64,000 nt of DNA. Source: Lytechinus pictus (lineage: Eukaryota). Under the pieces are notes generated by a model that saw only the letters and a program-made list of their open reading frames with translations, was not told the DNA's origin and made no database searches. The stretch's first letter is position 1; the number at the start of each line of letters is the position of its first letter. Location: NCBI RefSeq assembly GCF_037042905.1, contig NC_087252.1, positions 4,404,001-4,468,000 on the forward strand, in the 5' to 3' direction. Below, piece after piece: positions 1,026-21,125 of this stretch. Made by a program: the position numbers and the translations under genes.

Positions 1026-1121
1026 ATCCGAAACGACCGCAGCCAACCATTCCAGCTGCTACTATTATATTGGTTTCGGTGATAACTTTGTACCTACTGA
1101 GTCCTCTTCGTTACACCTCAC
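1026..1121 (+). CDS. NLR-like gene, exon encoding a hydrophobic segment (signal anchor or signal-peptide-like): xPKRPQPTIPAATIILVSVITLYLLSPLRYTS
   Basis: Pyrimidine tract plus cag acceptor (1023-1025) and gtaatg donor at 1122. The 96 nt exon is phase 1-1 and open. Its last C joins CG of the next exon to give Pro, producing a typical EGF start (SPCASGPC). Confidence 0.7.
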
Positions 1122-1319
1122 GTAATGTATAAACACAATATGTAGTAGATATCTAAGCTTGGATTATGCATTTCATTTGTACTGTTTTACAAGTGTACTT
1201 TTCAATGATATGTTCTATGATAAATTTTACCACAAAATACGATGATTGTTTATAAGGCAGTTTCCACCTGGTTCGGTTCTTGAGGGAAAAAATTATGATA
1301 ATGACAATAATAGTAGTCA

Positions 1320-1595
1320 GTTCTTGTATAGCGCATAGCACATTATGAATAACGTCTCTATGCGCTTCCAAAGGACCTGGATATTATTACCCTGGCTGTA
1401 GCTCAAGCAGCTTTTACGCGCTCGGCATTTCAAGGAATAAATTCCTGCTAGGTACCCATTCACCTCACCTGGGTTGAGTGCAGCACAATGTGGATTAATG
1501 TCTTGCTAAAGGAAACTACGCCATGGCTGGGATTTGGACCAACGACCCTCTGTTTCAAAGTCCGGAGACTAATTCACTGGGCCACAATGCTCCAC
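1320..1595 (-). mobile_element. tRNA-derived SINE (MetaSINE-like central domain)
   Basis: Minus strand has a tRNA-like head (gtggcccagtg) then ccacattgtgctgcactcaacccaggtgaggtgaatgggtacc; related to 14865-15150. Confidence 0.75.
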
Positions 1596-2062
1596 AAATC
1601 TTTTTATATATGCATCGTTAATTGTCCTTTTTTCATTTGCTCTTATAGGTTTGAGCACTTTGTTTTTTTATCGATGACAGACTTCCATGTTCGTTGATTT
1701 CAGTTGTTGATCAATTCATACTCACCCTTACACATTTTTAAGCGTGCTACAAGCTTGTACTAGCTGGCGACTAACGTATGGCTTACTTAAGCTATTGAAA
1801 GCTAGCAAGCTGCGCATGGTCGCGAAAGGTCGCTTGATTATTTCTCTGTACGCACGTTGCAAACTTAATAAGCTATCCACTTTCTAATACAGAGGTTAAC
1901 AATGTGATTTCAGAACAAGCAGATGACACATTCTCAGAAACCTGTTTATATTGGCTGGGGATGTCTGCCCCTTGAAGAAAACCTCAAAAGGTAGTTAATG
2001 AAAACTTGTATTGATCATTTTGTTACTGTCACGCAACAGAAAAGAATATATACATATAAATT

Positions 2063-2105
<43 letters not shown>

Positions 2106-2150
2106 GTCTGCTTCGGCATATGGAATAAAGTAATCACAATTAAGGTTTAG

Positions 2151-2650
2151 TAAATGCCGTGAAAATAAAATCGTAGATTTTAAAAGGAGCATAGCTCTCA
2201 AAAATGAAAGGTAAAGTCACACTCTTCGTCAGTGCCCATGATGTGACAAATTCAAAATCCGTTTCTGAAACAGTCGTGAAAAACACGTCTGTTCATGGGC
2301 ATACGGATTGTGAAACTCACCTTTCAAAGAAATCAATGCGCTGAAGATAGGAATGCTCCTGTTTTGGAGCCGGAGATTCGCCATTGTCATCTTGCAGTCA
2401 TGGTAACGCGTCTTTAGATGCGTCTTTTACAGTGCGCTTCCTCCATCTTCAGCGCATTGATTTCTTTGAAAGGTGGGTTTCACAATCCGTATGCCCATGA
2501 ACAGACGTGTTTTTCACGACTGTTTCAGAAACGGATTTTGAATTCTCTTTTTTGTCACATCATGGGCACTGACGAAGAGTGTGACTTTACCTTTCATTTT
2601 TGAGAGCTATGCTCCTTTTAAAATCTACGATTTTATTTCCACGGCATTTA
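2151..2650. repeat. About 200 bp near-perfect inverted repeat (arms about 2151-2348 and 2446-2650) between (TA)n tracts
   Basis: taaatgccgtgaaaataaaatcgtagatt...ctgaagat matches the reverse complement of atcttcag...aatctacgattttatttccacggcattta; spacer about 97 nt. Confidence 0.95.
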
Positions 2651-2738
2651 TATATATATACATATGAGAAAGGGCGAGAGAGGGGGTATTTTAATTAATT
2701 TCCATTAAAGTTCACATTTCATACTTTCTTTCTTATAG

Positions 2739-2843
2739 CGTGTGCATCAGGACCTTGTCAAAATGGAGCAACTTGTAACGATCTCTTGCGGTCCTTTTCC
2801 TGTGTTTGTAGAAATGGTTACGAAGGAGAAAGGTGTGAAATAG
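2739..2843 (+). CDS. NLR-like gene, EGF-like exon 1 ([35 protein letters not shown])
   Basis: ctttctttcttatag acceptor and gtacga donor; phase 1-1; six Cys in canonical EGF spacing. Confidence 0.92.
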
Positions 2844-3435
2844 GTACGATTTTCATTTTCTGCTAGCAAACATACATTTGGTTTAGAGCTCATCCTCTTA
2901 GGAAAATACTCAACGGGCAAGTAAAATTACCTAACCTTGAAATGAACAATTGACAATTATAAATTATTTGAAAAAGTATTTTATCCCGCATTGATTAATA
3001 GCATTGTTATTTAGGATTAATTATGCTTTAACACACTTGACAAAAATGGGACAACATTTCCAATAAGAGATTAAAGGAATCTATTCTTATGCCAAAGTAA
3101 TTCATTGACCTATAAAACTCATCATTATACCAAATTAGAACTATCTAGAAAAGAACGTAGTTATGAATAAATAAAAAGAGATAATCAACAACTTTAAAAA
3201 AATAAAGATTAAGATATTTCTTCAGATTTTTTTTTGTCAATCCACCGGCTTTGATTTTTTTTGGTCTCCATTGACAACAATTTTATTAAATTCTATATAC
3301 CCGCCTTAACTTGTAAGCCCACTTTTGGTCTTTCAACTTCAACTTTTAATCCGAAGACCAGTAAAACTCTGTTATACTTGTAGTATATCGAGAGGTATTA
3401 AGAACAAGCATAAGCTCATGACGGTAATTTTAGAC

Positions 3436-3586
3436 CTGGGGTCCGTTGCAGAAAGAGTTGCGTTTAAACGCAATCCAAAAATCAATCGCAAGTCCCAAAT
3501 GCGCGCTGTTGATTAGTTGAAAATCAAATTGAGCATTATTTTTTAGAGTTGCGATTGATTGCAACTCTTTCTGCAACGGGCCCCAG
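3436..3586. mobile_element. MITE with about 26 bp TIRs (PIF/Harbinger-like ends)
   Basis: ctggggtccgttgcagaaagagttgc ... gcaactctttctgcaacgggccccag; related longer elements at about 35503-35780 and 59095-59345. Confidence 0.8.
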
Positions 3587-3628
3587 TAACCACTAATGGA
3601 TGATGGATTGTAATTGATATTTCAACAG

Positions 3629-3742
3629 AAGTTGATGAATGTGCGTCTTCTCCTTGTCTTCATGGTGGTACGTGTAAGGACTTGGTTGGGTCCTTCTTCT
3701 GTGCTTGCACTCTGGGATATGGAGGCATTGGATGCGAAAAGG
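3629..3742 (+). CDS. NLR-like gene, EGF-like exon 2, calcium-binding type ([38 protein letters not shown])
   Basis: tttcaacag acceptor and gtacgt donor; 114 nt, phase 1-1; VDEC start and CxDxxxxFxC motif of Notch/fibropellin-type EGF repeats. Confidence 0.93.
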
Positions 3743-6248
3743 GTACGTTATATACCATTATACGACATCATTAACATAAACTATTTTGAATATCGATGAT
3801 TTTATCATCGGGTGAATTATTTCAAAAGTTGTCAGACAGGAATGTTGTTTCTCCTCTATTTTCAATTCCACACTGAATTAATTACTCACACTCCATATTC
3901 GACCATGAGATATGTAGGCGACTTCTTTTTTCCGACCGAGAGGCGGGAGGGGGGTTGTACTATCACCCCAGCTCATCATTGAAAGTGCTCCAATTATTCT
4001 TCCACAGCAATACCAAGAGACCAAAATGATATCCATTACTATCCATTGCTAAAATTAAGATCTTTTGCCTTTGATTCAATTTGCATTGAAAATCTACTTT
4101 GTACTTTGTAGATTCCAATATTACCTTTTTTGCATATCTTATGTTGTTATATATTATTGGTGTAAAAATCATGGGATTTATAAAGGATATTTCACTATCA
4201 CACTTTCACCAACTTAAAGATATATGTGCATTTCATGAAGGTGGTTTTATCAAATAATGTAAATAATTTTTATTGATTTCTTGACGTAATGTGTAACTTC
4301 ATAGGAGGAAGATGTATAAGAGTTTCATTTGCATTTAAGTCAACTAAGGTCTAATGTACTGTACTGAGAAATACCTGCCTAAAGGGGCTTTCACAATTGC
4401 TCGTGCGATCGTTTGCGATCATTTGGTCACAATATAAGATATTCCAAGTCTCAATGTTAGCATCAAATTCTACTACATTTTATTCTGAAATCGGGTCGCA
4501 GACCGATCGTAAGGTGTGCGGTCGCCTTAACAGTACTGGTGGAGGCCCCCGCCTCGAAATCTTGGTAAAATGGCGGGTATCGGTGGTAACATAAGAACAT
4601 CTCAGTCGCTCATGTCACTCGTGAATGTGGTGTGTCTTCACGGTGTGTAGGGTTCGAGTATCACCATGATCACATTGCCGATCAAAAAACATGACGTGGT
4701 GTGACAAGAATACATGGACAGGAAGGACAAACAGAGAGGGAAAAAAATGAAACATTAGGAAGAGAGACGAGAGATGGGGGTCTCTAATTACGACGGGGGA
4801 ACATTGTCACGCGGGTGTGGGGAGAAAGTGGGGGGGGGGTAGTGCGACCCTCAGCCATGTCAGCTAATATGAGAGAAGTGATGTTGTAGTTTGCCCCCAA
4901 AAGGTAAAGTTTGAAAAGCTGAGAGAGACAAAGAGATAGATAGAGGTATGGAGGGAGGGAGCGAAAGAGAGAGGGGGAGGGAGAGATGAGACAGGGATGG
5001 GGTGCCGGAAGAGATGGATAAAAGAGAGAGGGGTGGTGGTACTTTATCTGTCTACGGAGGAATTTATCATTCAGGGTCGTTACAGGTTATGAAAAATTCC
5101 CAATATGAACATTATTGTCATCGTCGTCATCGTCGTTTTCAGTATTTTATGACTTTCTCAATGACAGGGCGTGTTACGGTATCAATCGCCATCTCGTATT
5201 TCATTTTCTCATCTATTATCATTTAATTAATCCTGTGTTTATTACAGATCAAACCCGTCACCATACCAACACAAACATCAGAGAAAATTTGCGAGAGAGC
5301 AGTTAAGTTTGGAACATGTGTGGGACGCGAGCGACAACATGGCGGATGTTGTATCTGCGTGTGCGCGACCGATCAGTGGTGGTGGTGATGTTGGTTGCTA
5401 TAGTTACATGACTCTAAGGGAATGTCAGCTTCACATTGATGTACTATGTCAGGTATGGATTAACCTTCTCTCATGTAGATACGGGATCATTCTCTGAGCT
5501 TAACGCTCGATGGCAGCCATTCTCGAACCAAGGGCTTATCTGGGGGCGTAGCCAGCCATGAGGGGCACCAGGGAACAAATACCCCCCCCCCCCCCGCCTT
5601 GGACCTACATTATCTCCACACATTGACAACAAAATACATATTGTGATAGATGATGTAGTGTGGATAGCGAGACGACTATCCGAAATCATGAATACTCCCT
5701 GCGACGAGAATATACATATATTTCACCCAACGATTTATCCACCCCCCCCCCCTCCAATAGCTTTCAGTTATCACATGATCGTATTTGCGAATGTTGATTT
5801 CTCTAGATTCCCTAATAATAATCCCGAATCCTTCTATTCTTCCGCGTCATAGCATGCAAGTACATGTACTGTAAAACTATTTTCTGAACACACCTGCCCT
5901 CCACCCCTTTCTCTCTTGGTTTTCTCCATTTTCGTTTATTATTCTATTATGAGCTAAGAAACTTGTTAACTGGACTTACTTGACTTTTATTGCGAGGTTA
6001 AACATCCTATCCAGGGCGCTTCATCAGGCCAAATGATCTTCGGCGGAAATTTGCTGTTGTTCTCTCAGAATCCCAACTTATTCTGTAAAATGAATAAAGG
6101 AAAATGAATAGAAATCAGAAGAAGGATTTACCACATGAAATAAAAAAGGGACATTGTTGATATAGGCCTACTTATCTTACTTGCTCTTCGGGTAGCGTCT
6201 AATCTACTTCATTTGAAAAGGGTGGTTATTCAAAGAAATTAAGATTAA

Positions 6249-6733
6249 AGGGGAAGTTCACCCTGAAGAAAAGTATATCATAAAAATAGAAGAAAGAATA
6301 ATGTAAAATATTGGTGAAGGTTTGAGGAAAATCCATTCAAGATTAAGAAAGTTATTACAATTTTAAATTTTGGATTTGTGACATCATAAAAGAGCAGCTG
6401 TCCCATTGATTATGCAATATAAAATGCATAAATTTCATTTTTTTTATGGTTCATGAAGTTTTATTTTGGTTTTGCTTTTAGGAAAGGTTGTAAACTGATT
6501 TGTTTATTGATATACTGAAGGTACAGTAATAACCATTATCAACTTTCTTTTATTGATTTTTTTACCATACGGTATCTAGGAAAGCTGCTCGCATGTGACG
6601 TCACAAATCAAATAATCAAAATTCTAATAACTTTTTTATTCCATGATGGATTTTTCTCAAAACTTCGGCAATATTTTTAATTATATTTTCTGCTATTTTT
6701 ACAATCAACTTTTTGTCAGGGTAAACTTCCCCT
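6249..6733. mobile_element. TTAA-flanked MITE family A (Kolobok/T2-like)
   Basis: TTAA|aggggaagttcaccctga ... tcagggtaaacttcccct|TTAA; homologous copy at 55921-56409 and partial copy near 33005-33400. Confidence 0.85.
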
Positions 6734-7302
6734 TTAAAGGTATTACCAGGGACACGTCCCTGGTAATACATATTACTCGTCATTTTCTCGAGAACTCATC
6801 ATCACCCTATGTCTATTATTATGCCCTTGATTCATGTCTGTCGAATCAGTTTCATTCCCAGCATGCATCATCTTCCTTTCCCCAATCCAAGTCACAGACC
6901 GTGGTATCGGGTAAGGGGTAGCCTGCAGACACAGACCCTGATTGAAACTTTGATCAACAAGTGGGTCTCCACACAAAGACTAGCACATACAGGGCCTTCA
7001 GTACACAAAACATTATTAGGCTGCACATTCAGACCCTTAACTCAAGTGAAGGGTTTGCACAGCAGACGAGGTAAGGGGCACCTCGGCAAAATAATCACCT
7101 TGCCCAAGTCTGTTCAGAGATGTGTCATAAATCGTCTGTTGAAAATGTTTTATTCTTTTTTCTTCTTCAATTTCTATATAATACAATCAAATTGACAATT
7201 GACATCAACAAAATGCATGAACGTGATTATGACGAAGTTGAATGTAAGGACATGATGCATTGTCAAGAAAGATTGTGATTTAAATTCGCTTTAGAACATA
7301 TC

Positions 7303-7530
7303 ACACCGTGTATTCACAGTGTGTTCACATTGTGTCTCACTGTGTGTTCACGGTGTGTTCACATTGTCCCACAATGGGTTCACAGTGTCCCACAGTGTGT
7401 TCACTGTGTGTTCACAGTTTATTCACGGTGTGTTCACAGTGTCCCAAAATGTGTTCACAGTGTCCCACAGTTATTTACAGAGTATTTACAGTGTGTCCAG
7501 AGTGTCCCACAGTGTTTTTACAGTGTGTTA
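7303..7530. repeat. Degenerate minisatellite (CACAGTGTGTT / CACAGTGTCC units)
   Basis: Tandem 10-11 nt units visible directly; they explain the three overlapping ORFs here. Confidence 0.9.
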
Positions 7531-8037
7531 AGTTTACAGTGCGGAACCCAATGTGAAAACATTTTCACATTTGAGCATTTTAACAGTATAAATCACAACT
7601 TCACATTTTCCATTGTGTGACCCCCCCCCCCCCCGATTGTTCTTTAAGAAGTGAAAAGGGAGAGACACACAAAAAAACTTTAGGTAGCCCCGCCCCCAAG
7701 CTCCAAATAAATATACCCCGGCGCCGCCCCTGTATCAACCCATCAATTAAGAAGTATGTTTCGTCGGAAAATGTCTTAAATTCTCCAAAAGTCGGCCCTT
7801 TCGGCCATTCTCTTGTTTCCAATAAAACAACTTTCCTGCGCCACATTTTGTCACGCAACGCACCGTTCATCTTAAAACATTATCTTTTATCTTTTCATCA
7901 AGGATATGAATATGTTGGACCACAGCCTCACTTTCCCTTTACGATCCAGAAACCCTTGATAATACCTCACTCCTTCATGTTTTGCACGCTTCGAAACTCC
8001 CACCGGAATCGCCAAGACCCTCCAACCAACCCCTTAA

Positions 8038-9212
8038 AGCCCCTTTCACAATTGACGTACGACCACTTGCGACCTTTTGGTCGTGCGACAGGCTGCAACA
8101 GGCATCAATCGCCAGTCATCTCATAATATCGCACATAGGCTTTCACAGTTGCAACAGCTGTCGTACAACAAAAACAACCAGTAAAACCCGTTGCACGAGT
8201 AAGTCGATTATGATCCTATTGTGCTCGTGCGATCACATGCGAGTGTTGCACGAGGGATTGCGAGGGGAACGGTCGCACACAACGGTAGTGCAATGTTGTA
8301 AGCCGTTGCGATCGGTCTTGCAACAGTCTTATGGCACATCATATTATCGCACCCAGTCGCAAGACAGGTCTCTGTACATGTAGGTCGCTAGCACATGTGC
8401 AAGTGTTGTACGACCTCCAGTCGAGTAAATGCGACTACTTAGTTGTGCCACCTCTCGCACCAAGTCGTGCAACGTTGAACAACACTCCCACGATGATCGC
8501 CCGACCGATGGTACGACCCCGGATACGAGCTGATGCGAGTGAATCGGTCGTATTTGATCGCGTTCGGATTTTGAACATGTTCAAAGTTCAGATGTGACCA
8601 GTCACGACCACCTCGAGTTCGTGCGACCGTCTACAACGACTGCGAGTGCTCGCAAGTCACCAAGAGATCGATCGTGCAACAGCAGAAAAAAACTGTTGCA
8701 GGCGGTCGTAAACTGGTCGGATGTCAATTGTGAAAGGGGCTGTACGGTCGCATACATGCGAATGCAACGGTAGTGGAATGTTGTAAGCCGTAATTTCGAT
8801 CGGTCTTGCAACAGTCTTATATTATCGCAACCAGTCGCAAGACTGGTCTCTGTAGGTATCTAGCGCATGTGCAAGTGTTGTACGACCTCCAGTCGACTAA
8901 ATGCGACTATACGTAGTTGTGTCACCTCTCGCACCAAGTCGTACAACGTTGAACAACACTCACACGATGATCGTCCGACCGATGGTACGACCTGATGCGA
9001 GTAAACCAATCGTATTTGATCGCGTTTGGATTTTGAACATGTTCAGATTCAGATGCGACCAGTCACGACCACCTCCGACCACCTCAAATTCGTGCGTTCG
9101 TCTACAACCACTGCGAGTGCTCGCCAGACACCAAGAGATCGATCGTGCAACAACAAGAAAAATCTGTTGCAGGCGGTCGTAAACAGGTCGTACGTCAATT
9201 GTGAAAGGGGCT
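8038..9212. mobile_element. Non-autonomous DNA transposon with 27 bp TIRs and TAA flanks (PIF/Harbinger-like), with its 3' half tandemly duplicated
   Basis: TAA|agcccctttcacaattgacgtacgacc ... ggtcgtacgtcaattgtgaaaggggct|TAA; about 8268-8741 is repeated as about 8745-9212, including the right TIR. Confidence 0.88.
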
Positions 9213-9495
9213 TAATGCACACAATCGCAGCGGTTGGAAGTAGTCGCAACAGCAATTGGAAAAGGGGCTTAAACATCCGGGATGAAAACACATTAGTGAA
9301 TATTTCTTCCTCTATTAAATTGCTAGTGTTCGATTTTTTTGGAAACATTAGACGCTCAAACCATTGACATTTTTCAAAATGATCAGACACAAATCATACA
9401 TCTGTTCATTTGGGGTTTGTTAACTTATCGACATTGGTCAGCATAATCAGAAACAAAATCCTATCTTTTCATGTCATGCATTTTGCATAACTTAG

Positions 9496-9609
9496 ATTTA
9501 GACGTGTGTTCATCTGTACCTTGTCATTATGGAGGAACCTGCCAGCCATTGGGGACAATCTACCGGTGTATATGTCCCCCGGGCCGCGGAGGTGTTCGAT
9601 GTGAAACTG
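9496..9609 (+). CDS. NLR-like gene, EGF-like exon 3 ([38 protein letters not shown])
   Basis: cttag acceptor and gtgcgt donor; 114 nt, phase 1-1; six-Cys EGF pattern. Confidence 0.92.
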
Positions 9610-10264
9610 GTGCGTGACTTTACATTTAGGGGGCGCCCTATAGGGGACTAGAGTTTATTCCCCCTACTCCCCTAACCCCATGATTTTATTTTTCAAGTAG
9701 TGGAAGCAGTAGGAAGGGAAGAAATAAAAAGAAGTGAGAACTAAAAACGAAGAAAGATGTACCAATGAATGGTATGTCTTTGGGTAAACTTCAATATATT
9801 TGGCAGTTTGATGAAAGAGCTTTTGAGAGATAGGCGCCAAAACTGTGGAAAACCTTCCCCATGTTGGGTGTTGCATAAAGCTGTTCTAACGTTAAGAGCG
9901 AGTTATAAGAACGACTGGTAATCTCTTCTTGTGGCAAATGTATATATCAAAATATTCATTGACTATAATTATGATTAAGCGCGTAAGAAAGGTTCACCAG
10001 TAGTTTTTAAATTCGCGTTTAATGAATATAACAAGATTAATAAAAGACAGACTTCGATAGATTCAATTATGTGTTTAAGAAGTACATGTATTAGCTTTCA
10101 ATCAAAACTTCAAATTTCACACTCATGGAAATTTTATTATGCGTTCCAAAGAACCAAATAGTATCGTGGTCATTATCTTTAGTAATACGATCAATCATTG
10201 CCTCTCCGAAACGTTATTATGTTAAAGGTATTTACGTTTAATCAATCTTTTTGCTTTCGTCCAG

Positions 10265-11802
10265 AATATATAACAGATACCCTCTCTCTGCCCGAATGTC
10301 AACAACTGCTACGAGACCACTACGAGCAGTATTATTTCAAGATCCACATCAAGCCTTGGGATCCACAGGACTATGTGGGTCTGGAGAACATTTTTACTAC
10401 TATCACTGTACATGAGCAGGACAAAAGTTACCTTTCAAGACCGGCTAAACGCAAAGGCACATTAAAAGAACTATTAAGCACGATACAAAGTAGAAGGGTG
10501 TTACCGGGGGTGTTACTCGTTGGTGACGCCGGACGAGGCAAGTCTACTGCAGTTGCAAAGATCGCGCACGACTGGGCGAATGAAGTGACGGCTAACTTCT
10601 TTCAAAATCATACTTTATTATTCGTCCTGAAAATGCGACGCATGAACGAGACGACGACATTTGCAGAAGAGATCGTTCGATTACTGGGAAAGAAATACAT
10701 CGGCGCTGAGACTCAAATACAAAAGTATATTGATACCAATGAAAGACGTGTGGGAATTATTTTCGACGGGTATGACGAATTCACTGGCAGTGTTGAGGAA
10801 GGGGGTCACGAATCTGACATCGTGGATATTTTACGCCATTATAGTTGTAAGCAGTGCAAAGTTCTAGTAACCACGCGTCCGTTCAGAGAGGTTGACTTTT
10901 ACTTTGGAGACCCGAGTTCTGTCTATTCTAAGGTGGTACTTGAGGGATATTCAAACGACCAGGCTATGAAGTTCATTGATAGGTTTTTCGAATCTAACCA
11001 GTTAACGAAAAGGGTCCTGAAGGAATACCTTGAGAACGAACCTATCATTTCAGAACTTATAACGACCCCCCTTTTTTGCACCATGGTAATATGTTGTATG
11101 TGGAGAGAGGATAGACTGAAAGGAACCTACACAAAGTCGAGTTTCTTCGATACCACTATGAATTTTCTTCTGAAGCATGCTAAAGCTAAGGCAATCTTAC
11201 CGAAGAGTGTGGACCTTGATGATTTACTGTACCATGTCGGTGGGGTCGCGTTTGATAAACTAAGTGAGGGTGGAGATGAAAGTTCGTTGCTTTTCACTCA
11301 TGACGATTTCATGAATGTAATTTCACACAAAGAAACGAGCCTAAAGCTTGGTTTACTTACAACAGCCATGGCTTTAGATGAAGACTTCATACTCTTCATC
11401 GAATTTTTCCACAAGTTAGCCCTGGAATATTCAGCTGGGAAATATTTTGCTTTTGCTGCCTTCAACGGGAAAATGGGGGCGTGGCGTGGAAAAACAATCC
11501 TAGAACTGGGCATTTTCCAGGTTTTGGAGTTCGCAGCCGGGGCGTCCGAATCTGCTTGTGAGAAAATCTTAGGTTATATTGCCGAAGAATGCTCTTTAAG
11601 ACGGAGCTCTGTTTGTGGTAGTCAATCATACCAAGAGATGATTCTAAGCCTGATTAGTGAAGCCGAGAATATGTGTGCCGAAAATATGATCGAAGCTACC
11701 TCGCCATCTTTATTTAGACTGAACGGGACACTAGATCTTGGGTGTCCAAAGGCATCGGCCGTTGTCGGCTTCGGTAAACTTCCTCAACATGTGAAAAACA
11801 AG
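10265..11802 (+). CDS. NLR-like gene, large NACHT (STAND NTPase) exon including HD1/winged-helix/HD2 region
   Basis: Lies within ORF 10198-11808. Phase-1 acceptor tttcgtccag at 10264 matches the EGF3 donor. Motifs: Walker A GDAGRGKS (10522-10545), Walker B IIFDGYDE, sensor-1 VLVTTRP, HD1 TPLF, WH motif FFHKLALEY. Phase-0 gt donor at 11803. Confidence 0.93.
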
Positions 11803-12813
11803 GTCTGACGTAGTTTACGTCACATTTATTACCATAATTGTTTGAAAGTCGTATCATTGGGATGCACATATAGCAGACGGGTATATTTTCCATACAAGCG
11901 CTTGTTCGAACATGTAGGCCTTATGGAAAGTACTACCCTTTTGCCAAATGTATTACAAACTAAAGGCATATCTTAAAATACCTTCTACGGAGAATGGATA
12001 GATTCTACCTTTAACAGTTTAAAGGGGGTATATTACTTATAATAATTTAATTAAAGTGTCCCCATTAATTCCATATATTCCTTCAAAAAGAATGGAAGGC
12101 AATAAGTGTACATAGTCTGGACTTAAAAGAGAGAACCAAGATCAGTTCCTTTCTGTTGTTAGTTTCTTTGATTTTCTTCTCTTGTTCGTTCACTGTATGT
12201 TATGTTAATTCTTGGTTGATCATTGTAATTCTTTGTATCGATGTGTTATCCTATTTTCATTTCTGTAAAATGGCAGGACGCCTTGGTCGAGCAGTTGGCA
12301 CTTAAAGGGCTAACCTGTTAATATAAAACGACAAAAGAATGAATATAAAATAGGACACGCACATAAGTAAACGCGAAACGAGGGACGTCAAAGACGACAC
12401 CATTTAGCTGTGTAAAATTAGTTATCACTAATAAGGTACCCTGATATTTCCCATTTCCCTTTTTGAGACATTATAGGCCATTTTAGGCAGAGTAAGTTTA
12501 ATTTTTTCGTAAATTATATTTTACCATACCAATTGGATCCATTTCCAGAGCCACCCCTCAAAAATTCAGAAACGCAGGATCCACTCCTGATAGCCCCTTG
12601 AGTATGAGTCCATGCAAAAAAAGGTAGAAATTGAAAAAAGGGTGTCTTTAATCACCTTTGAGCGATCCGGAAACAAGTACCTGATATTTCGGTAAAACAG
12701 AACGTTTTTTACCAAACAGGCCGGCGCTAAGGGGGGATTTATTTGAATTTAGATATATACATATATATATGTATATTTAAGTATAGCATATTTATTATGT
12801 CATTTAAATGCAG

Positions 12814-13023
12814 ATTATAGAAGTCAGCGTAGATGTTTCTGACTGGACGACACGTATTTTTAAGAAATTATGGGGAAATTTTGCTAATTGCTCCAGACTC
12901 AGTCATCTGAAAATGTCATTCCACACCCCTCCAACAATTCCAAACGATGAGGAAAAACTTTACACTGTCAAAAGATTTACCATAAGCCTACCAATTCAAC
13001 CATCGGGGATGAAACCTATGAAG
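12814..13023 (+). CDS. NLR-like gene, post-NACHT exon with LRR-like segment (IIEVSVD...NCSRLSHLKMSF...KPMK)
   Basis: tgcag acceptor and aag|gtaaaa donor; 210 nt, phase 0-0, open; LxxLxM pattern. Confidence 0.8.
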
Positions 13024-13193
13024 GTAAAATCGTAGATTAGTATTACTATGTAATCATTTTACGTTCAATTCAATTTTAAATTCAATCTATTTCCACTTTA
13101 AAATGTATACGGGCACCCTACATGAGATACGACGCCGGAAGGATAACCCCTAAGAGCTTTCATTTAAGCTACGCCTACCATTATTCTCTAACA

Positions 13194-13209
13194 ATATATA
13201 TATATATAC

Positions 13210-13292
<83 letters not shown>

Positions 13293-13460
13293 CTTTATTT
13301 ACTTTGTTATTATTACGATTCTATTTGTATGGTTTTGTTCTATTTTGTTTGTTACAATATTATAGGCCTGATGAAGGCCCTACTGGCCGAAAGCTAGCAT
13401 TAAATGAGATACCTTGACAGCTACATGTACGTCTAGCGTCTATGCCTGGGTTGTTTTACG

Positions 13461-13517
<57 letters not shown>
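13194..13517. repeat. (TA)n microsatellite interrupted by an insertion of about 170 bp
   Basis: TA runs at 13194-13290 and 13464-13517 flank sequence containing a hammerhead motif. Confidence 0.9.
13364..13399 (+). ncRNA. Minimal type I hammerhead ribozyme motif
   Basis: GC-CUGAUGA-A-GGCC(cuacu)GGCC-GAAA-GC-UA-GC: intact core, 4 bp stem II, palindromic AGCU stem III, short stem I. Confidence 0.75.
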
Positions 13518-13519
<2 letters not shown>

Positions 13520-13621
13520 CACATGTTTAATTTTTCACACTTTATACATAGATATATGTGTGCGTTTGTGTGGGTGGTGAATACACATGAGTTATAACTT
13601 ATCTCTCCCTCCCATTTTCAG

Positions 13622-13780
13622 AGTCATTCTTTCAAGCGAAGGATAAAGACCCCAAGTTCCCGGCGTTCTAGTTCCCCTCAGCCTCAGGACCTGGATCCGT
13701 CGCTGCTTGAAGACCTATTCGATATGATCGAGGAATCTCCACCAGCGAAGGCAAAAAACAAAGAAGAGGAAGAAGAAAGG
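13622..13780 (+). CDS. NLR-like gene, low-complexity linker exon (SHSFKRRIKTPSSRRSSSPQPQDLDPSLLEDLFDMIEESPPAKAKNKEEEEER)
   Basis: Strong pyrimidine tract plus ttttcag acceptor and agg|gtattt donor; 159 nt, phase 0-0, open. Confidence 0.75.
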
Positions 13781-13936
13781 GTATTTCCCCTTAGGTTTCC
13801 CAATATTTGTGCAATATTTACGTGTAAATGTTGCTTTCTTTCAAAATGATGTTTATTTTGTGTGGCCAATAATTTCATAGCAGTGTGTATATAGGTAACA
13901 AAACCAGCCGGTCAGATTATGGTGTGTTCTGATTCG

Positions 13937-14190
13937 GTGTGTTGGCTCAGTTGGTAGAGCGTCCGTCTCACAACCGGAAGGTCGAGAGTTCGAACCCCGG
14001 CCCCGTCAGACCAAAACTCCCACGGAAAAAGATGGGAGTTGCTGCTATTTTTCACTGTTTGACGTTCAACGATTAAAGGGATGGAGCCTGGTCGATCTGG
14101 CGCTGCACAGCGGCGGACGGGCACACGATCAATCGGGCAAAGCAAATTTTCGGAGTATTTCATTTCATGTCTATTTCGAACAAGAAAATA
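13937..14190 (+). mobile_element. tRNA-derived SINE
   Basis: A box tggctcagttggtagagc and B box gttcgaaccc followed by a non-tRNA body; no complete acceptor stem. Confidence 0.8.
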
Positions 14191-14864
14191 TGGATTTTCA
14201 TTTTTTATGCCCGAACATGGTATAAATGAGTCGTGGAGAAAGATCAAATATGGGGAAAAGGGAAGGGCTGAAGTTTGAATGAAATTGGACTTTCATCTTT
14301 TTTCTCGTCCACCCGAGATGTAGACGACTAACTTGACTAGAAAACAAATCCGTCACAAATATTAAAACATACTTGTATACAGGTACATGCAGGATTTTCT
14401 TGTTACACATATCATTGGTAAGTGTTACTGCAATAGTAACTACACTGGGATCATAAAAACATGCACTTGGGATACATTGGTGCATTAGGTTGCGAATAAG
14501 TAAGGTCAAAGGCCATTTCCGGTCAAACGTTGAGGTGTACTTGCAGATAATCTTTTCATGCTTTTCAAATTCCAGGTTATAATTATGTTAAATCACAACT
14601 ACATAGGAAGTTGGAAAAGGAGTAGCATTTCATGGATTCAAATTGACAGATATTTACACATCAATAATAATACACCAATCAAAATCATTAGATGTGTAAT
14701 AACTTTACCCTTTTAATGAGAACGTGGATACAAATTTCAGTATAAGCATGCTTAGTATACAGGCGAAAGAAAAGTTAGATTCAACCCTGACCTGCTAGTC
14801 ATTGAGTCAAGATTCTTTCTAAACTACTTGTTTTTCTTGTTAATAGTTGTTACTTTTTTTTCTT

Positions 14865-15150
14865 GGGGCGCCGTGGTCTAGTGGTTACGACTCTTGTCTT
14901 TCAATCAGTGGGCCATGGGTGCGAATCAAAGCCATGGCGTGTTTTCCTTCAGCAAGAAATTTACCCACATTGTGCTGCACTCGACCCAGGTGAGAATGGG
15001 TACCCGGCAGGAAATTCCTCGAATGCTCAAGCGCCCAATCGAGGTAGCCGTGCTAAAGCCGGGGTAATAATAACATTATCATGTTAAGCAGGGCCAGCTG
15101 GGAGAACAGTTTTCAGAACTAAAGTTGTTACCCTGGGTAAAATATGACGT
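14865..15150 (+). mobile_element. tRNA-derived SINE (MetaSINE-like)
   Basis: gtggtctagtggtta A box, degenerate B box, core cactcgacccaggtgagaatgggtacccggcag. Further degenerate copies near 31915-32400 and 40440-40570. Confidence 0.75.
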
Positions 15151-15200
15151 TGTTATCATTAACTTCTGTACAATAATAATGTTGTTCTAATTCACTTAAG

Positions 15201-15464
15201 GCGGCCTTCAATTGTCGCACGCCAGACGTACCCACACTGGAGGACATATCGCAAGTAGTTGACAGAATGTCGACATACATCTCACGTTTCGCATCGCACG
15301 TTCATAGAGGGAGTTCCCAGCGCAACAACTTTAGGAGCTTGCCTTCTGGCCCGGTTGCTGGCAAACCTGTAAAGAGGTTTAGTACGAAAGTGGCATCGTC
15401 TGATATTGTTCTACAACTTTTATCCAAGTTGCCTAACCTCGAGGAACTCGTCATACTTCCAGAG
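15201..15464 (+). CDS. NLR-like gene, exon ending in an LRR-like motif (AAFNCRTPDV...LLSKLPNLEELVILPE)
   Basis: ttcacttaag acceptor and gag|gtagaa donor; 264 nt, phase 0-0; in frame with ORF 15267-15491; LPNLEEL motif. Confidence 0.8.
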
Positions 15465-15766
15465 GTAGAAATAAGTTTTCCTTTTGCTTAATTTCAACCG
15501 TTTGGTTACTCTTTTTCTTGCAATCGTTTGTGTTTCTTGAGTATGAGGATGATTGGTGGTGTTGGTGTGTGTGTGTGTATGTGTATGTGAGTGAACAGAT
15601 AGAGGTGAATGTGTATGCATGTGTGGTGCGTGTGCATGTTGGTGTTTCTGTTTGAGTGCGTGTCAGTCTCCATGTCTGTGAAGGGGTTGAGTTTAAAGGA
15701 TAGGATCATCAGTAGCTGCTTTTGAAAGAAAATCTGCTGTCTTGTATACACTAAAAAAAAGTTTAA

Positions 15767-16343
15767 AGGATAAGTCCACCCCAACAAAAAGTTGATTTGA
15801 AAAAAGGAAAAAAAGCCAACAAACAAAACACTGATTTTTTTTATCAAAATCGGATGTAAAATAAGAAAGTTATGACATTTTAAAGTTTTGCTTAATATCA
15901 CAAAATAGTTATGTGCACATCCTGGTCGATATGAAAATGAGGAGACTGATGACGTCATCCATTCACTATTTCTTTTGTATTTATATGAAATATTCTGATT
16001 TCTGATAAGGGGAACAACGATTAATTCCTACCTGGAATAAGCATTGTTTAATAATATGATGGTTCAGTCAAGTTCGTCCTAAATGTCAAATCTGTAAAAA
16101 ATGAAAAATGTTATTATTCAAACAATAAAAAAACAAAATCAATAGTGAGTGAGGGACATCATCGACTGTCTCATTTGCATGTCACTGATCTGTGCATATA
16201 ACTGTTTTGTGAAAAATATTAAAGCGAAACTTAAAAATGTCATAAATTTCTTTACATCTGATTTTGATGAAATATTCAGCATTATGCTTGTTTGATTTTC
16301 TCTATTTATTCAAATCAACATTTTTATGAGGTGAACTTGACCT
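15767..16343. mobile_element. TTAA-flanked MITE family B
   Basis: TTAA|aggataagtccacccc ... gtgaacttgacct|TTAG; subterminal inverted repeats; homologue at 41733-42297. Confidence 0.8.
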
Positions 16344-16674
16344 TTAGGTTTTTACTGAATTAGCCTATGTTTTTTTAAATCTGCACTAAAGCAAATAAAT
16401 TACCGAGTTTTACTTACTATATATTGTATTTCATTATGTAATATTTTATTGAATTTACAGAAAAAGAAAGGCAATTAAGAATGGTGATTCAGAAGAAGAG
16501 AGGCAATTAAGAATGGTGATTCAGAAGGAAAAATTAATCAAAATTAAAAGCAAAAATTATAAAATGTACATTATTTACAGGTTTTCTGATAACAAGTGAA
16601 GATTCTGTTGTGTAAATCGTGTTTTTAGGGTGAATTGTTCAGATACAGAAATTAGACAAAAATGTAGGGCATAG

Positions 16675-19656
16675 CCCCCTTCTGATCCCGAGCCCTTCTA
16701 CAAGAAAAGCACATGGATTCCACCCAAGAATAGAGTTCCTTCCCTTGAAACTTACATCCAATCTGTCTCATCCTAAGTTCGCTCCACAGATACCCTCGAC
16801 ACCAGAGCACATGACAACCTTCCTCGAGAAGAACGCCAGGCTCTCTCATCACTCAAAAACAGGTCCGACATCATCATCAAGCCTGCAGACAAAGGATCAG
16901 CCGTCGTTGTTATGGACCGCCAGCAGTACATCGATGAAGCCATGAAACATCTCAATAATCGATCTCACTATGCACTCCTCGATTCTGACCCTACTTGTAA
17001 TTTCTCCCTACAGATCCAATTAACACTGAATGACATGAAAGAACACCAGCATCTCTCCGAGAAGGCCCACAAATTTCTCTCCCCTACTAACACTAAACCT
17101 GCCCGCTTCTATCTCCTCCCGAAGATCCACAAACCTGGCAACCCCGGTCGACCCATCCTCTCAGGAAATGGTTCCTCAACAGAGAACATCTCCCTTTTTG
17201 TTAATTACCACATTAAGCCCCTTGTCTCACGTGCACCCTCTTACATCCACGACACTCCAGACTTTCTCAGGAAACTAAATGACATCAAGGACCAGATACC
17301 CGAGACTGCGATCATCGACACTTTCGATGTTTCTTCACTGTACACCAGCATTCCCCACGACGAAGGTATCCAAGCATCATGTGAAGCCTTGGCCGCCAGT
17401 GGCCATTCCAGTCCCCCATATCCGATATCAAATCTCTGATGTCTCATGTACTAACAAAAAACAACTTCACATTCATGGGCAAGCACTACCTACAGATATT
17501 CGGTACAGCAATGGGCACCCGGATGGCTCCTTCATTCGCCTGTCTCTTCATGACCAAGCTGGAACAGCAGATGTTAGATTCAGCCCCCTGTCGCCCATGG
17601 GTTTGGTGGCGTTACATAGACGACATTTTCTTCATCTGGACCAGGGATGAAGATAGCCTCCATACATTCATTGACCACATCAATTCCTTCCACAGGACCA
17701 TCAAATTCTCTTCTGATTTCTCCCAACAGGAAACCCACTTCCTTGATGTCACAGTCCAGAAAAAGTCTAACGGTATCACCACTACCCTATACTCTAAACC
17801 CACAGATACCCACCAGTACCTCCACTCATCCAGCTGCCACCCCCGTCACTGCAAAACCGGCATCGCTTACAGCAAGCCCTCAGACTTCGCCGTATCTGCT
17901 CCGAGGACCCTGATTTTTCCTTCCATGCCAGGAATTTGCAGAAACATCTCTGTGCCAGGGGCCACGGGGCCAGGGCAGTCCAACTGGCAATTAACAAAGT
18001 TCGTTCTCTCCCCAGATCTGAAGTTCTCAAACCAAAAAGTGACAAGGAGACTACCGACAGAATACCGCTTGTGACCACCTTCCATCCCAATCTACCCCCC
18101 CCCCCCTCCGCAAAATCCTGTGTGATAACCACCACATTTTACACACTTCTGATCGTCTCCAACAGGCCGTTCCCGATACTCCCCTTCTAGCATACCGACG
18201 CCCACCGAATCTCAGGGACCTCATTGTTCGTGCTGAAGTGCCCTCCCTCACTAACCATTCTTCTCCCATACAGCATGGCACCTTCAAATGCACCAGCAAC
18301 AGGTGCATCATATGTGAAATACACTTTCACGAGGGCGACACTTTCACCAGCAACTCTACCAGCCTGTCTCACCAAATCAAGGGCAACATAACATGCACTA
18401 CCACTAATGTTGTATATCTCATCACTTGCAGAGTTTGTAGGGTACAATACATAGGGGAAACCAAGACCACACTCAAGAGACGATTCTACGGGGACAGATC
18501 CACCGTCAACACAGCAAAGCTGGACACTCCGGTTGGCCGCCATTTTAACCTCCCCAACCACTCCATCACTGACATGATGCTACAGGGCATCGAATCTTCA
18601 GGTACCCGTCCTGACTCAGTCCGTACTAGCAGAGAGAAGCTCTGGATGAGACGACTTCGCACCACCCAACCTCATGGCCTGAACATCCAAGAGGGGAACG
18701 ACTGATTTTTCTTTCCTATCCACTTTCAATTTATATATACATATTATTTTTCCCCTCAGCTATTTTGAATAGTTACATTATAGTTTCTTCCTCTACTTTC
18801 CTCCCATATCTCATACAAGCTCAGCTCTAATTTTTTCCTTCCTTATTCAGGCGATATAACAATTATTGTATATATTTTTTTTTTCTCCACTCACCTCTTT
18901 TAGATTTACCACATTTGCTTATTTACATGTATACTATGGTTTCTTCATAATACACCCCCTCTCTTCTATATTTGCTTTTACCTTTTAGGGCAATTTGCTT
19001 CCTCTTTTTCACATATACAGGTGTTTTTTTTTTCCTACTGTATAGTCCTATGTTTTCTTCCCGTCACACCTAGCGGATTACAATATCAGTTACACCATAT
19101 GTGTATTCAAATTTTTTCATATACATTTCTTTTTTGGATATATTTATATACATATCACTTATAGATACATATTTACACTTACCTTCTTCTCTTAGTTTGT
19201 TTAATGCTTTATCATATATACTTATATGTCTTTTGCACATTATCAGTTGTTCCCCATTCTTTTCCTTTTTTTCCCCCACTCTTATGCACCAGTTCATTAT
19301 GCCTTTCTTTGTAACCTGTTTGACCCACCTCTCACTAATTCTCTAGTTATTCACCCCTCTATCACTGTTTTGTTCCAGATCCTGTTTGATGTTGCCTGCC
19401 TCATTATCTTAATCCCTCTTGGCCTTACTTACACTAACTTCCCTTTGTGTCTGCCTACTCCTTTTCTTTCATCCCCTTCACTAACCTGATTGGTCTTCTC
19501 TACTCACTAATGCCCCTTTTGTCTCCTTGTTTCTAGTGTTGCTGTAGCTTGTTTGTGGTCTATATTATGGTTGTTCCACTTTATATGTTTGTCATTTTGC
19601 CTCCGACGAAGATTCTGCTAGGATCGAAAGCTTAGGCCCCTTTTTGACTTTCTACT
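16675..19656 (+). mobile_element. Penelope-like retroelement (Neptune-type), 5'-truncated, frameshifted RT plus GIY-YIG endonuclease, in an NLR intron
   Basis: ORFs 16912-17439 and 17439-18074 carry PLE RT motifs (FYLLPKIHKPGNPGRPI, FDVSSLYTSIP, GTAMGTRMAPSFA, WWRYIDDIF). ORF 18238-18705 has a Cys linker (CTSNRCIIC) and GIY-YIG motif (NVVYLITC...QYIGET, PHGLN). The 3' tail ends in a hammerhead-type motif. The 5' boundary is approximate. Confidence 0.93.
19599..19637 (+). ncRNA. Minimal type I hammerhead-like motif (U4C core variant) at the Penelope 3' end
   Basis: GCCU-CCGACGA-A-GAUUCU(gcu)AGGAUC-GAAA-GC-UU-AGGC: stem I GCCU/AGGC, 6 bp stem II, AAGCUU palindrome. Confidence 0.65.
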
Positions 19657-20020
19657 GCATAATAAAAATCTCTTTTTTGGTGAATTACAAGTCTGTCTCT
19701 TTCATTGATGGCATATTCAATTTGGCTTCTGTACTCTAACTGGAATTCTGAAATGCAAGCCTGGTCAAAATTTTAAATGAAGATTCATCATGGTTTTATG
19801 AACAGAACTATTGTATTTTACCATGAAATGTTAAAATTATGTTCATGCCACTGAAAAGGTGCAGTGATTTATTTAGATTTCTTATGTTTTTTTCTTTAAT
19901 TATTCATTTATTTGTTTTTCTTTCGGTTTCCCCCTCCCCTTTTCTTTTTCATTCTCCTCCTCTCATTCTCACCTTATATCTTCCCTTTTCTGCTCTCCTC
20001 CCCCAATGTTGCAAGCCCAG

Positions 20021-20525
20021 GACTGGTCATTTGAGGATACGAAGACAGAAAAATCGGCCAAAATCTTCATGAGGTTTTGGAATCGGCTTTCCTTACACCC
20101 CAAGCTATCAATCCTGGAATTGAACTTGACGGGATGCAAGCGCTTACAAATATAAGGACATTCCGTACGATCGTTGATGACAACCCTCAGGCCTTCGCAG
20201 ACATATTTCCATACTTACCAGAACTCGAAGAACTGAGTGTCACCGTTAAGAGATCACTAGACAATGTGTTATCAGCACTTGCGTTTGGTGTGCCACTGAA
20301 TAGACGACACCTAAAACGTATTAACATTACTTACAATGCTGCAAACCACCATTTGAAGGGAACCATTTCACTTAACACCATTCGACAACTCACAAGCGGA
20401 CTCCGGGCCAGCTGGGCCATCCAGGAACTGCGTATTCGGACTGTAGAAGGCTTCTTATTTGCAGAATCTCATTTAGTGAAACTGGTGAAGTCGGCGAAGT
20501 CCATTCGATCCTTGGAACATTTAGG
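20021..20525 (+). CDS. NLR-like gene, LRR-like exon (YLPELEELSV, HLKRINI, AIQELRI, SIRSLEHLG) with an apparent frame discontinuity near its 5' end
   Basis: Long pyrimidine tract (about 19920-20003) then cccag acceptor. ORF 20077-20529 carries four LxxLxL-like motifs and ends at a gg|gtaagc phase-2 donor. The phase-0 frame from 20021 stops at 20153, so the 5' boundary is uncertain. Confidence 0.7.
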
Positions 20526-20674
20526 GTAAGCGTGGAAATTGTCACATCTATTTATCATGGATATTCAGAATATGCAATGTATATACATCCTATCATTTAA
20601 ATAAAAACACATCCATATGTTAACAGATAAATACCTAACATTTTAATTAAGTAGTAGTAGAGTAGAAAGTGGTA

Positions 20675-20728
<54 letters not shown>

Positions 20729-20989
20729 TTGTCCACGTTCTGTCTTAAGTGCTGATCACTCTTGTATTATAGGACTGCATGATGAACCAAATTCCATTTT
20801 CCTCGGCAATATCAACCAATAATGCTGAAAACCATCTTGCCCTTTTGTTGTTTTGAAAAATGGGGGCGCATCATTTTTATCTATATGGTTCACGATACGG
20901 TTTTAACAATAAAAATAATAATCACAAAAGTATGCATCTTATACTTGAATTTAGTTGTTATTTTGTCTCCATTTTTCGTATTTCCTCAG

Positions 20990-21125
20990 GATTCCCTGCG
21001 CTGTCAATGCTAATGGTGACCTTGATCGATATTTAGCTCCGATTTGCAAAACCCATCTCTTGTCGAAAATGACCGAGGGTAAAAAGAAGAAATTTTTCAT
21101 CAGGCTGACTCTATATCCCAAGACG
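20990..21125 (+). CDS. NLR-like gene, late exon (GIPCAVNANGDLDRYLAPICKTHLLSKMTEGKKKKFFIRLTLYPKT)
   Basis: tttcctcag phase-2 acceptor matches the previous donor; consensus acg|gtgagt donor; open frame. Confidence 0.8.

What the first reader, a model, noticed from the sequence alone, without database searches (positions are those of the whole stretch)
1026..21125. NLR with a membrane-anchor-like segment and three EGF repeats spliced directly onto the NACHT domain
Seen: phase-1 exons at 1026, 2739, 3629 and 9496 splice in frame to the phase-1 NACHT exon at 10265, giving hydrophobic segment-EGF-cbEGF-EGF-NACHT-(linker)-LRR-like. Established: animal NLRs are usually cytosolic with death-fold (DD/CARD/PYD/DED) or BIR N-termini, whereas EGF repeats are disulfide-bonded extracellular modules. 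Membrane-linked NLR-like proteins have been reported in some invertebrates, but an EGF array directly fused to NACHT is not an architecture I recognise. Inference: phase-1 exon shuffling created a new immune-receptor architecture.
Basis: partly seen in the sequence, partly recalled or inferred. Interest (0 to 1): 0.85.

Follow-up and report, generated by a model that had tools for sequence, protein, structure and literature searches.

The report
Membrane-spanning sea-urchin NLR with EGF stalk
A transcribed sea-urchin immune-receptor gene has a membrane anchor and three EGF repeats inserted between its death domain and its NACHT-LRR sensor, which by simple topology would put this normally cytosolic sensor outside the cytosol; close relatives share the layout, but its orientation and function are untested.

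Summary
The protein is Death-TM-EGF x3-NACHT-LRR, stop-free for 865 codons. Spliced RNA contigs show the TM-to-EGF1 joint. One 2.6-kb contig covers NACHT plus 716 nt on its 5' side, at the same depth as that joint and as EGF1. The 9609/10265 joint itself was not printed. A paralogue in this genome and RefSeq models of L. variegatus and S. purpuratus share the layout, and all fall in one NACHT clade. Only 1 of 26 paralogues checked has upstream EGF exons. No second membrane segment separates EGF from NACHT, so a type II protein with cytosolic death domain and luminal or extracellular EGF-NACHT-LRR is the best reading (about 0.5; untested). EGF was listed as a sea-urchin NACHT partner in a 2008 supplement; I found no description of this architecture. 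This copy has a frame switch in its last large LRR exon.

The parts
1..1025 (+). 3' part of the intron that follows a death-domain exon lying UPSTREAM of the window. That exon is G000:C8:4402708-4402967 (L011:8608-8867; 260 nt, phase 2 to 1), ending about 1.03 kb before window base 1.
   Evidence: Upstream exon: Atlas best clusters Death PF00531, score 0.90; 35% identical to the N-terminal domain of P0037, E 2e-14; no Pfam hit at E<=0.01; in frame with exon 1026. The join to exon 1026 was not directly seen in RNA.
1026..1121 (+). Signal-anchor / transmembrane exon (phase 1-1): basic, Pro-rich lead-in, then 15-17 hydrophobic residues
   Evidence: joint to 2739 in an X3 contig of depth 21.6 (table 5c)
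2739..2843 (+). EGF repeat 1 (6 Cys)
   Evidence: Pfam EGF E 8.6e-10; covered by single contigs in X1, X2 and X3 (table 3, position 2770)
3629..3742 (+).
   Evidence: Pfam EGF E 2.2e-9; EGF_CA 26.5 bits against a cut-off of 27; bin 3684-4095 depth 0.66/0.38/0 in X1/X2/X3
9496..9609 (+). EGF repeat 3 (6 Cys), last exon before NACHT
   Evidence: Pfam EGF E 1.5e-7; bin depth 1.1/0.93/6.66 in X1/X2/X3; no hydrophobic phase-1 exon among 11 candidates in the next intron
10265..11802 (+). NACHT exon (nucleotide-binding, helical and winged-helix parts) with intact Walker A, Walker B, sensor-1 and winged-helix His
   Evidence: Pfam NACHT E 2.2e-18; motifs; RNA contigs in X1-X3
12814..13023 (+). LRR-like exon 1
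   Evidence: spliced to the NACHT exon in contigs of X1, X2 and X3 (table 8); clade C-terminal profile iE 1.9e-8
13622..13780 (+). Charged Ser/Pro/Glu-rich linker exon
   Evidence: in frame; present in model P0023
15201..15464 (+). Degenerate LRR-like exon 2
   Evidence: profile iE 0.005; splice sites; its start is in P0023
20021..20525 (+). LRR-like exon 3 with a frame switch near 20105-20135 and a stop at 20153 in the incoming frame
   Evidence: both frames match relatives; translations; outside the stretch on which reads were laid
20990..21125 (+). Probable further C-terminal exon; the end of the gene beyond it was not found
   Evidence: splice sites and phase fit the second frame of the previous exon; only a weak match to P0003, E 0.26

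Best explanation
One gene of an echinoid NLR clade encodes a single-pass, type II membrane protein: cytosolic death domain, signal anchor, a stalk of disulfide-bonded EGF repeats, then NACHT and LRRs in the ER/vesicle lumen or outside the cell. Shown: exon structure, domain order, transcription and splicing of TM-EGF1 and NACHT-LRR1, conservation in relatives, intact nucleotide-binding motifs. Inferred: (1) the hydrophobic segment crosses the membrane with the N-terminus inside; (2) the LRRs bind a ligand in the lumen or outside; (3) NACHT exchanges nucleotide and oligomerises as in NLRC4; (4) the ring gathers the anchors, clusters the cytosolic death domains and recruits a death-domain adaptor, so the protein works like a death receptor with an NLR ectodomain. 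Origin (inferred): symmetric phase-1 TM and EGF exons entered the phase-1 intron between the Death and NACHT exons.
For: One gene: X3 contig of 2600 nt, depth 21.6, covers 10264-11800 and 12812-13004 and has 716 nt more on its 5' side; the TM-EGF1 joint and the only contig at position 2770 also have depth 21.6. P0001, P0002, P0019 and P0020 join EGF directly to NACHT; the C12 paralogue does so stop-free. The window, C12, P0001, P0002 and P0037 fall in one 9-row NACHT clade, SH-aLRT 98. Membrane segment: a 13-18-residue hydrophobic stretch sits at this place in 7 related sequences; of the NACHT proteins outside the clade, only P0118 had one before NACHT. It stays hydrophobic in C12 and L. variegatus although its letters differ widely where NACHT is 97% identical. 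Topology: no second segment between EGF and NACHT; no N-terminal signal peptide seen in 6 models; net charge C-side minus N-side is 0 or less in 6 of 7 (rule recalled). Oxidising side: 13 of 13 EGF repeats keep six Cys; 7 of the 7 short repeats keep the O-fucose pattern and 6 of 7 the O-glucose pattern (patterns recalled); window EGF2 is at most 69% identical to the other 149 genome hits listed. NACHT exon of the clade: 37 N-glycan sequons against 24 expected, versus 94 against 107 in 45 other NACHTs; Cys 1.7% versus 2.3%. Fold of P0001: confident N-terminal helical domain, NACHT and LRR; best match NLRC4, E 1e-22.
Against: No experiment on topology. The hydrophobic core is short (13-18 residues) and marginal on a rough insertion scale at 19 residues. 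P0037 reads Death-EGF x6-NACHT with no hydrophobic segment; P0024 reads Death-NACHT; P0025 and P0033 have the segment but no EGF. These may be poor models or real isoforms. The sequon and Cys signals are post hoc and come from one clade: with 4 core lineages p is 0.13, the window itself has 3 against 2 expected, and the whole post-EGF part of P0002 has 4 against 5.8. One of 7 charge biases points the other way (P0120). NACHT needs ATP, which is scarce outside cells (established knowledge). This copy has a frame switch in LRR exon 3, and the public model of this locus starts inside NACHT and ends early. The EGF part of the AlphaFold model is low-confidence.
Confidence: 0.5

Rival explanations
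1. Membrane-tethered but wholly cytosolic NLR: the short hydrophobic segment dips into the membrane or forms a hairpin, death domain and NACHT both face the cytosol, and the EGF repeats are reduced or metal-bound spacers.
For: Short core of 13-18 residues; nucleotide-binding motifs intact, which suits cytosolic ATP; P0037 has EGFs and no anchor; sequon signal weak.
Against: All six Cys kept in 13 of 13 repeats, with calcium-binding and O-glycosylation patterns; no Pro inside the hydrophobic cores to make a hairpin; lower Cys and more sequons in clade NACHTs.
Confidence: 0.2
2. The hydrophobic segment acts as an internal cleavable signal: EGF-NACHT-LRR is released into the lumen or coelomic fluid as a soluble opsonin or decoy, and the death domain stays behind.
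For: In P0001, P0025, P0120, P0033 and P0002 the segment ends in small residues that fit the recalled signal-peptidase rule; its length is signal-like.
Against: In the window and in C12 the flank has Pro or bulky residues and does not fit that rule; no signal-peptide predictor was run; a retained death domain makes more sense in an uncut chain.
Confidence: 0.12
3. The working product is an ordinary cytosolic Death-NACHT-LRR isoform that skips the symmetric TM and EGF exons; the long form is a minor or regulatory product, and this window copy may be decaying.
For: All inserted exons are frame-neutral; models lacking TM, EGF or both exist; EGF2 absent from X3; frame switch in LRR exon 3 and a truncated public model.
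Against: The one long NACHT contig of X3 starts with a single base shared with the intron, which fits the end of EGF3 or EGF2 but not of EGF1 or the Death exon. Both L. variegatus isoforms keep TM and EGF. The C12 paralogue keeps them stop-free.
Confidence: 0.14
4. The TM-EGF exons belong to a separate small gene or are chance neighbours of the NACHT exon.
For: The 9609/10265 joint was not among the printed rows; EGF exons are very common in this genome (3033 first-look candidates).
Against: Same order in the C12 paralogue and in two other species; EGF exons upstream of only 1 of 26 paralogues checked, the one in this clade; depth-matched contig evidence; the exons lie between the Death and NACHT exons.
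Confidence: 0.04

Closest known systems
Echinoid Death-NACHT-LRR NLRs (as summarised in PMC3879445 and PMC2858798; passages seen)
   Same: Death-fold N-terminus, single large NACHT exon, C-terminal LRR-like repeats; 24 of 26 paralogues checked have an upstream death-fold exon, one of them weak.
   Different: A hydrophobic anchor and up to six EGF repeats lie between death domain and NACHT. PMC3879445 states that Strongylocentrotus NLR N-termini are limited to death-fold domains.
RefSeq models L. variegatus LOC121425107 (XP_041477019/20) and S. purpuratus LOC105438493 (XP_011664686)
   Same: Death-(Death)-TM-EGF-NACHT-LRR; 42-43% identical over the NACHT exon. LOC121425107 matches the C12 paralogue at 97%.
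   Different: One EGF in these models, of other sequence (two in the related model P0019), and a different death-domain subtype. They are labelled uncharacterised; no paper with these identifiers was found.
Sea-cucumber AjNLR-new (PMC13133943; passages and section 4 seen) and AjNLRC4 (PMC8699970; passages seen)
   Same: Echinoderm membrane NLR-like proteins with an extracellular-type module (Ig); AjNLR-new is reported to have an extracellular NACHT.
   Different: Ig instead of EGF and two predicted TM segments; AjNLRC4 is described as lacking CARD and LRR and has its Ig outside and NACHT inside, with a TM between them. The topology evidence for AjNLR-new in section 4 is prediction, co-localisation and binding of recombinant fragments, not protease protection or glycan mapping.
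Anthozoan NLRs with 3-5 N-terminal TM segments (PMC5094078, PMC3879445; passages seen)
   Same: Membrane-linked animal NLRs.
   Different: There a multi-pass domain is the N-terminal region itself; no EGF and no single anchor between death domain and NACHT are described in the passages seen.
NLRC4 (PDB 4kxf)
   Same: Best structural match of the S. purpuratus relative, E 1.1e-22, 14% identity.
   Different: Cytosolic, with CARD joined directly to NACHT (recalled).
Death receptors of the Fas/TNFR type (recalled)
   Same: Proposed logic only: ectodomain clustering gathers cytosolic death domains.
   Different: Type I proteins with cysteine-rich TNFR ectodomains; no NTPase.

Membership tests
NLR (NACHT-LRR) family | NACHT domain | tested here: met
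   Pfam PF05729 67 bits against a cut-off of 26.7
NLR (NACHT-LRR) family | Intact Walker A, Walker B, sensor-1 and winged-helix His | tested here: met
   motifs present in the window and clade
NLR (NACHT-LRR) family | C-terminal leucine-rich repeats | tested here: inconclusive
   No Pfam hit on the two window LRR ORFs scanned; exons match the clade's C-terminal profile; the relative P0001 folds with strand-helix repeats and matches NLRC4, NLRP3 and NOD2; this copy has a frame switch
NLR (NACHT-LRR) family | N-terminal death-fold effector domain | tested here: met
   upstream exon; its join to the TM exon is inferred from phase and from relatives
NLR (NACHT-LRR) family | Cytosolic location of NACHT-LRR | not testable with these tools
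   sequence topology argues against it
NLR (NACHT-LRR) family | Ligand-induced, nucleotide-dependent oligomerisation | not testable with these tools
   needs biochemistry; no complex prediction was run
Sea-cucumber Ig-TM-NACHT receptors (AjNLRC4, AjNLR-new) | Ig domains and two predicted TM segments | tested here: not met
   no Ig family in the Pfam scans of the exons and relatives; one hydrophobic segment before NACHT
Anthozoan multi-TM NLRs | 3-5 clustered N-terminal TM segments | tested here: not met
   one hydrophobic segment, preceded by a death domain
Death receptors (Fas/TNFR type) | Type I topology with TNFR cysteine-rich ectodomain and C-terminal death domain | tested here: not met
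   death domain is N-terminal and no TNFR family was hit; the resemblance is only in proposed logic

The most novel reading that the evidence does not exclude
Echinoids evolved an inside-out NLR: a type II receptor whose active NACHT-LRR switch works in the secretory lumen or on the cell surface, on an EGF stalk of variable length, and signals across the membrane by clustering cytosolic death domains, possibly with luminal or damage-released ATP as the co-signal. The different anchors and EGF types in the clade's branches suggest repeated recruitment of such exons.
Probability: 0.4. Interest if true: 0.88.

Novelty: new variant of a known kind. Interest (0 to 1): 0.68.

Why it matters
Animal NLRs are defined as cytosolic sensors. 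A conserved Death-TM-EGF-NACHT-LRR protein forces a choice: either a STAND ATPase works outside the cytosol, or fully conserved EGF repeats sit inside it. Either would surprise a specialist. It gives a cleaner single-pass test of the claim, so far made for one sea-cucumber protein, that a NACHT domain can face outward. It also shows how inserting symmetric exons into one intron could carry an inflammasome-type switch across a membrane.

Tried and rejected
No RNA holder was listed as such by the run search; X1-X3 were taken as RNA because their contigs are spliced and the intron bins 1624-2035 and 11924-12747 are empty. A hidden second TM exon: 0 of 11 candidates hydrophobic in the EGF3-NACHT intron; 3 overlapping candidates at 4112 in the EGF2-EGF3 intron, in a bin swamped by repeat reads and so not testable; 1 weak candidate of 8 in the C12 intron. 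P0109 looked as if it matched across EGF and NACHT but has no EGF. Single-sequence AlphaFold of P0001 failed (pLDDT 38); the alignment-based model was used, and it gives no coordinates, so Cys pairing could not be measured. A search for longer relatives of the P0037 death domain found none among 67 candidates (weak evidence). No start-codon exon upstream of the Death exon was found, and no exon after 21125. The tree is the quick IQ-TREE run, the careful search did not finish, and it is midpoint-rooted. No second copy of LRR exon 3 was found in the assembly to check the frame switch. Hibino 2006, Rast 2006 and Messier-Solek 2010 could not be read. Supplementary Fig. 1 of PMC2858798 and supplementary table 6 of PMC8662601 may show such architectures in a form the text search could not see.
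Full report
Observation. The exons at 2739, 3629 and 9496 are Pfam EGF repeats above the curated cut-off, and the exon at 10265-11802 is a NACHT domain. The genome is a Lytechinus-like sea urchin: the NACHT exon is 96% identical to a partial L. pictus model, P0023.

The gene starts upstream of the window. A 260-nt exon at L011:8608-8867, 1.0-1.3 kb before base 1, encodes a death domain. Pfam missed it, but the Atlas places it with Death clusters at 0.90 and it is 35% identical to the N-terminal domain of P0037, E 2e-14. It ends in phase 1. The chain Death-TM-EGF1-3-NACHT-LRR1-linker has no stop in 865 codons. So the death fold was kept, and TM and EGF exons were added behind it.

RNA. I laid 4 of the 24 listed runs on window 800-13150. 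Contigs of X1, X2 and X3 join NACHT to exon 12814, and two intron stretches have zero depth, so they are spliced RNA. In X3 one contig of 2600 nt, depth 21.6, covers the whole NACHT exon and has 716 nt more on its 5' side. The TM-to-EGF1 joint and the single contig at position 2770 also have depth 21.6. The depth of the TM bin (4.77) fits about 85 nt of that contig, and the EGF3 bin has 6.66 against about 6.0 expected. The contig's NACHT piece starts at 10264, one base into the intron, which fits the end of EGF3 or EGF2 but not of EGF1 or the Death exon. Limits: that these pieces are one contig is inferred from equal depth; the 9609/10265 joint is not among the printed rows (169 hidden); EGF2 is covered in X1 and X2 but not X3; and X9, the only raw-read run laid (about a quarter read), had no reads on NACHT.

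Relatives. S. purpuratus XP_011664686 and L. variegatus XP_041477019/20 read Death-(Death)-TM-EGF-NACHT-LRR. The paralogue at G000:C12:30900176 matches the latter at 97% and has the same exon order, without stops from linker to NACHT. An unnamed model, P0037, has the window's death-domain subtype, six EGF repeats and NACHT but no hydrophobic segment; P0024 has Death-NACHT only; P0025 and P0033 have Death-TM-NACHT. In a quick tree of 56 NACHT regions these form one 9-row group with SH-aLRT 98; 7 rows carry TM or EGF. Of 107 NACHT proteins held, 5 carry EGF: three rows of this group and two cluster mates of them. I fetched 10-40 kb upstream of 26 paralogous NACHT exons, chosen from the 93 matches. 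EGF exons were found only at C12; death-fold exons at 24, one weak. The layout is therefore real, clade-restricted and shared by two genera.

Topology. There is one hydrophobic segment before NACHT, 13-18 residues long. In C12 it is split over two exons and differs widely in letters from L. variegatus while staying hydrophobic. No membrane segment or hydrophobic exon lies between EGF3 and NACHT; the hydrophobic stretch inside NACHT is the conserved helical-domain motif, also flagged in NACHTs outside the clade. No N-terminal signal peptide is seen in six models, and flanking charge is neutral or favours N-inside in 6 of 7 (rule recalled). EGF and NACHT are thus on the same side. All 13 EGF repeats examined keep six Cys (several are near-identical copies), and the short ones keep the recalled O-fucose pattern (7 of 7) and O-glucose pattern (6 of 7). 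Window EGF2 is at most 69% identical to the other listed genome hits, so it is probably not a fresh insertion. Clade NACHT exons have about twice the sequon density of 45 others (4.3 against 2.0 per 500 residues) and fewer Cys (1.7% against 2.3%). This is post hoc and from one clade: p is 0.13 with four core lineages, and the full post-EGF part of P0002 shows no excess. Walker A, Walker B, sensor-1 and the winged-helix His are intact. The alignment-based model of P0001 (mean pLDDT 76; EGF part under 50) matches NLRC4 best.

Mechanism. Most likely (0.5) a type II receptor: ligand binding by luminal or extracellular LRRs drives NACHT oligomerisation, which gathers the anchors and clusters cytosolic death domains. 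From recall, activated NLRC4 gathers its N-terminal CARDs on one face of the ring, so a stalk and anchor at that linker would carry the same logic across a membrane; also from recall, Torsin is an AAA+ ATPase of the ER lumen. Steps beyond domain order and splicing are inferred. Rivals: cytosolic tethered form (0.2), a skipped-exon cytosolic isoform or decaying copy (0.14), cleavage and secretion (0.12), separate genes (0.04).

State of this copy. Exon 20021-20525 begins in one frame that matches relatives and stops at 20153, while the rest of the match lies in another frame. The public model of the locus is also truncated. The C12 paralogue and its orthologue are the better test objects.

Literature. 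Zhang et al. 2008 (PMC2575513; passages, and supplementary file 4 read whole) list EGF and EGF_2 among 15 NACHT partner domains of sea-urchin gene models, beside RVT_1 and Sulfatase; the main text has no occurrence of EGF. Yuen et al. (PMC3879445; passages) say Strongylocentrotus NLR N-termini are limited to death folds. AjNLR-new (PMC13133943; passages and section 4) is reported to have an extracellular NACHT; AjNLRC4 (PMC8699970; passages) an intracellular one. Anthozoan multi-TM NLRs are in PMC5094078 (passages). Term look-ups in PMC2858798, PMC8662601, PMC11797021, PMC11508797, PMC13043383 and PMC8195603 (passages; supplement text searches for the first two) showed no EGF-NACHT protein. 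Nine library searches (listings only for papers not named above) gave no paper describing this architecture or the RefSeq identifiers. Three primary sea-urchin papers were not held, so a mention there is not excluded. Three look-ups of this scan's notes found no earlier report of it.

Verdict. Observation confirmed and extended; interpretation partly supported. A new variant of the NLR kind: annotated in databases, its domain pairing tabulated once, its architecture and topology problem not described in what I could search. Interest 0.68; 0.88 if the inside-out receptor is shown.

Noticed in passing
window 16634-18702 (+): Reverse transcriptase plus GIY-YIG ORFs in several frames, probably a Penelope-type retroelement (label recalled), inside the intron between LRR exons 2 and 3; a related GIY-YIG end lies at 26597-27094 on the minus strand.
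   Followed up: partly
L014:1040-8377 (+), about 31-39 kb upstream of the window: Uninterrupted 2446-codon ORF with URGCP and URGCP_GTPase domains, like the very large interferon-inducible GTPases (label recalled); an immune-type neighbour.
   Followed up: partly
L013:8260-8493 and L012:2535-2759 (-): Cytochrome P450 exon(s) on the opposite strand between that GTPase ORF and the NLR; Pfam p450 hit for the first only.
   Followed up: partly
L011:3638-7081 (-): Long LINE-type ORF (endonuclease plus reverse transcriptase) next to a long simple repeat, just upstream of the Death exon.
   Followed up: partly
window 1096-1121: The X3 contig carries a variant end of the TM exon (4 of 26 bases differ) that removes the one basic residue on the C-terminal flank (table 5c).
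   Followed up: partly
window 10265-11802: RNA contigs differ from the assembly by up to about 6%, with gaps, across the NACHT exon (record 21: 90 other letters, 21 gap positions), so the locus is highly polymorphic.
   Followed up: no
P0037 (unnamed MetaClust model): Five of its six EGF repeats are near-identical calcium-binding repeats of another type than the window's, hinting at recent tandem exon expansion and more than one EGF recruitment in this clade.
   Followed up: partly
G000 C6, C4 and C26: Large tandem clusters of NACHT exons.
   Followed up: no
window 8200-9230: Two diverged copies of a repeat of a few hundred bases in the EGF2-EGF3 intron, also present in many transcript contigs.
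   Followed up: no
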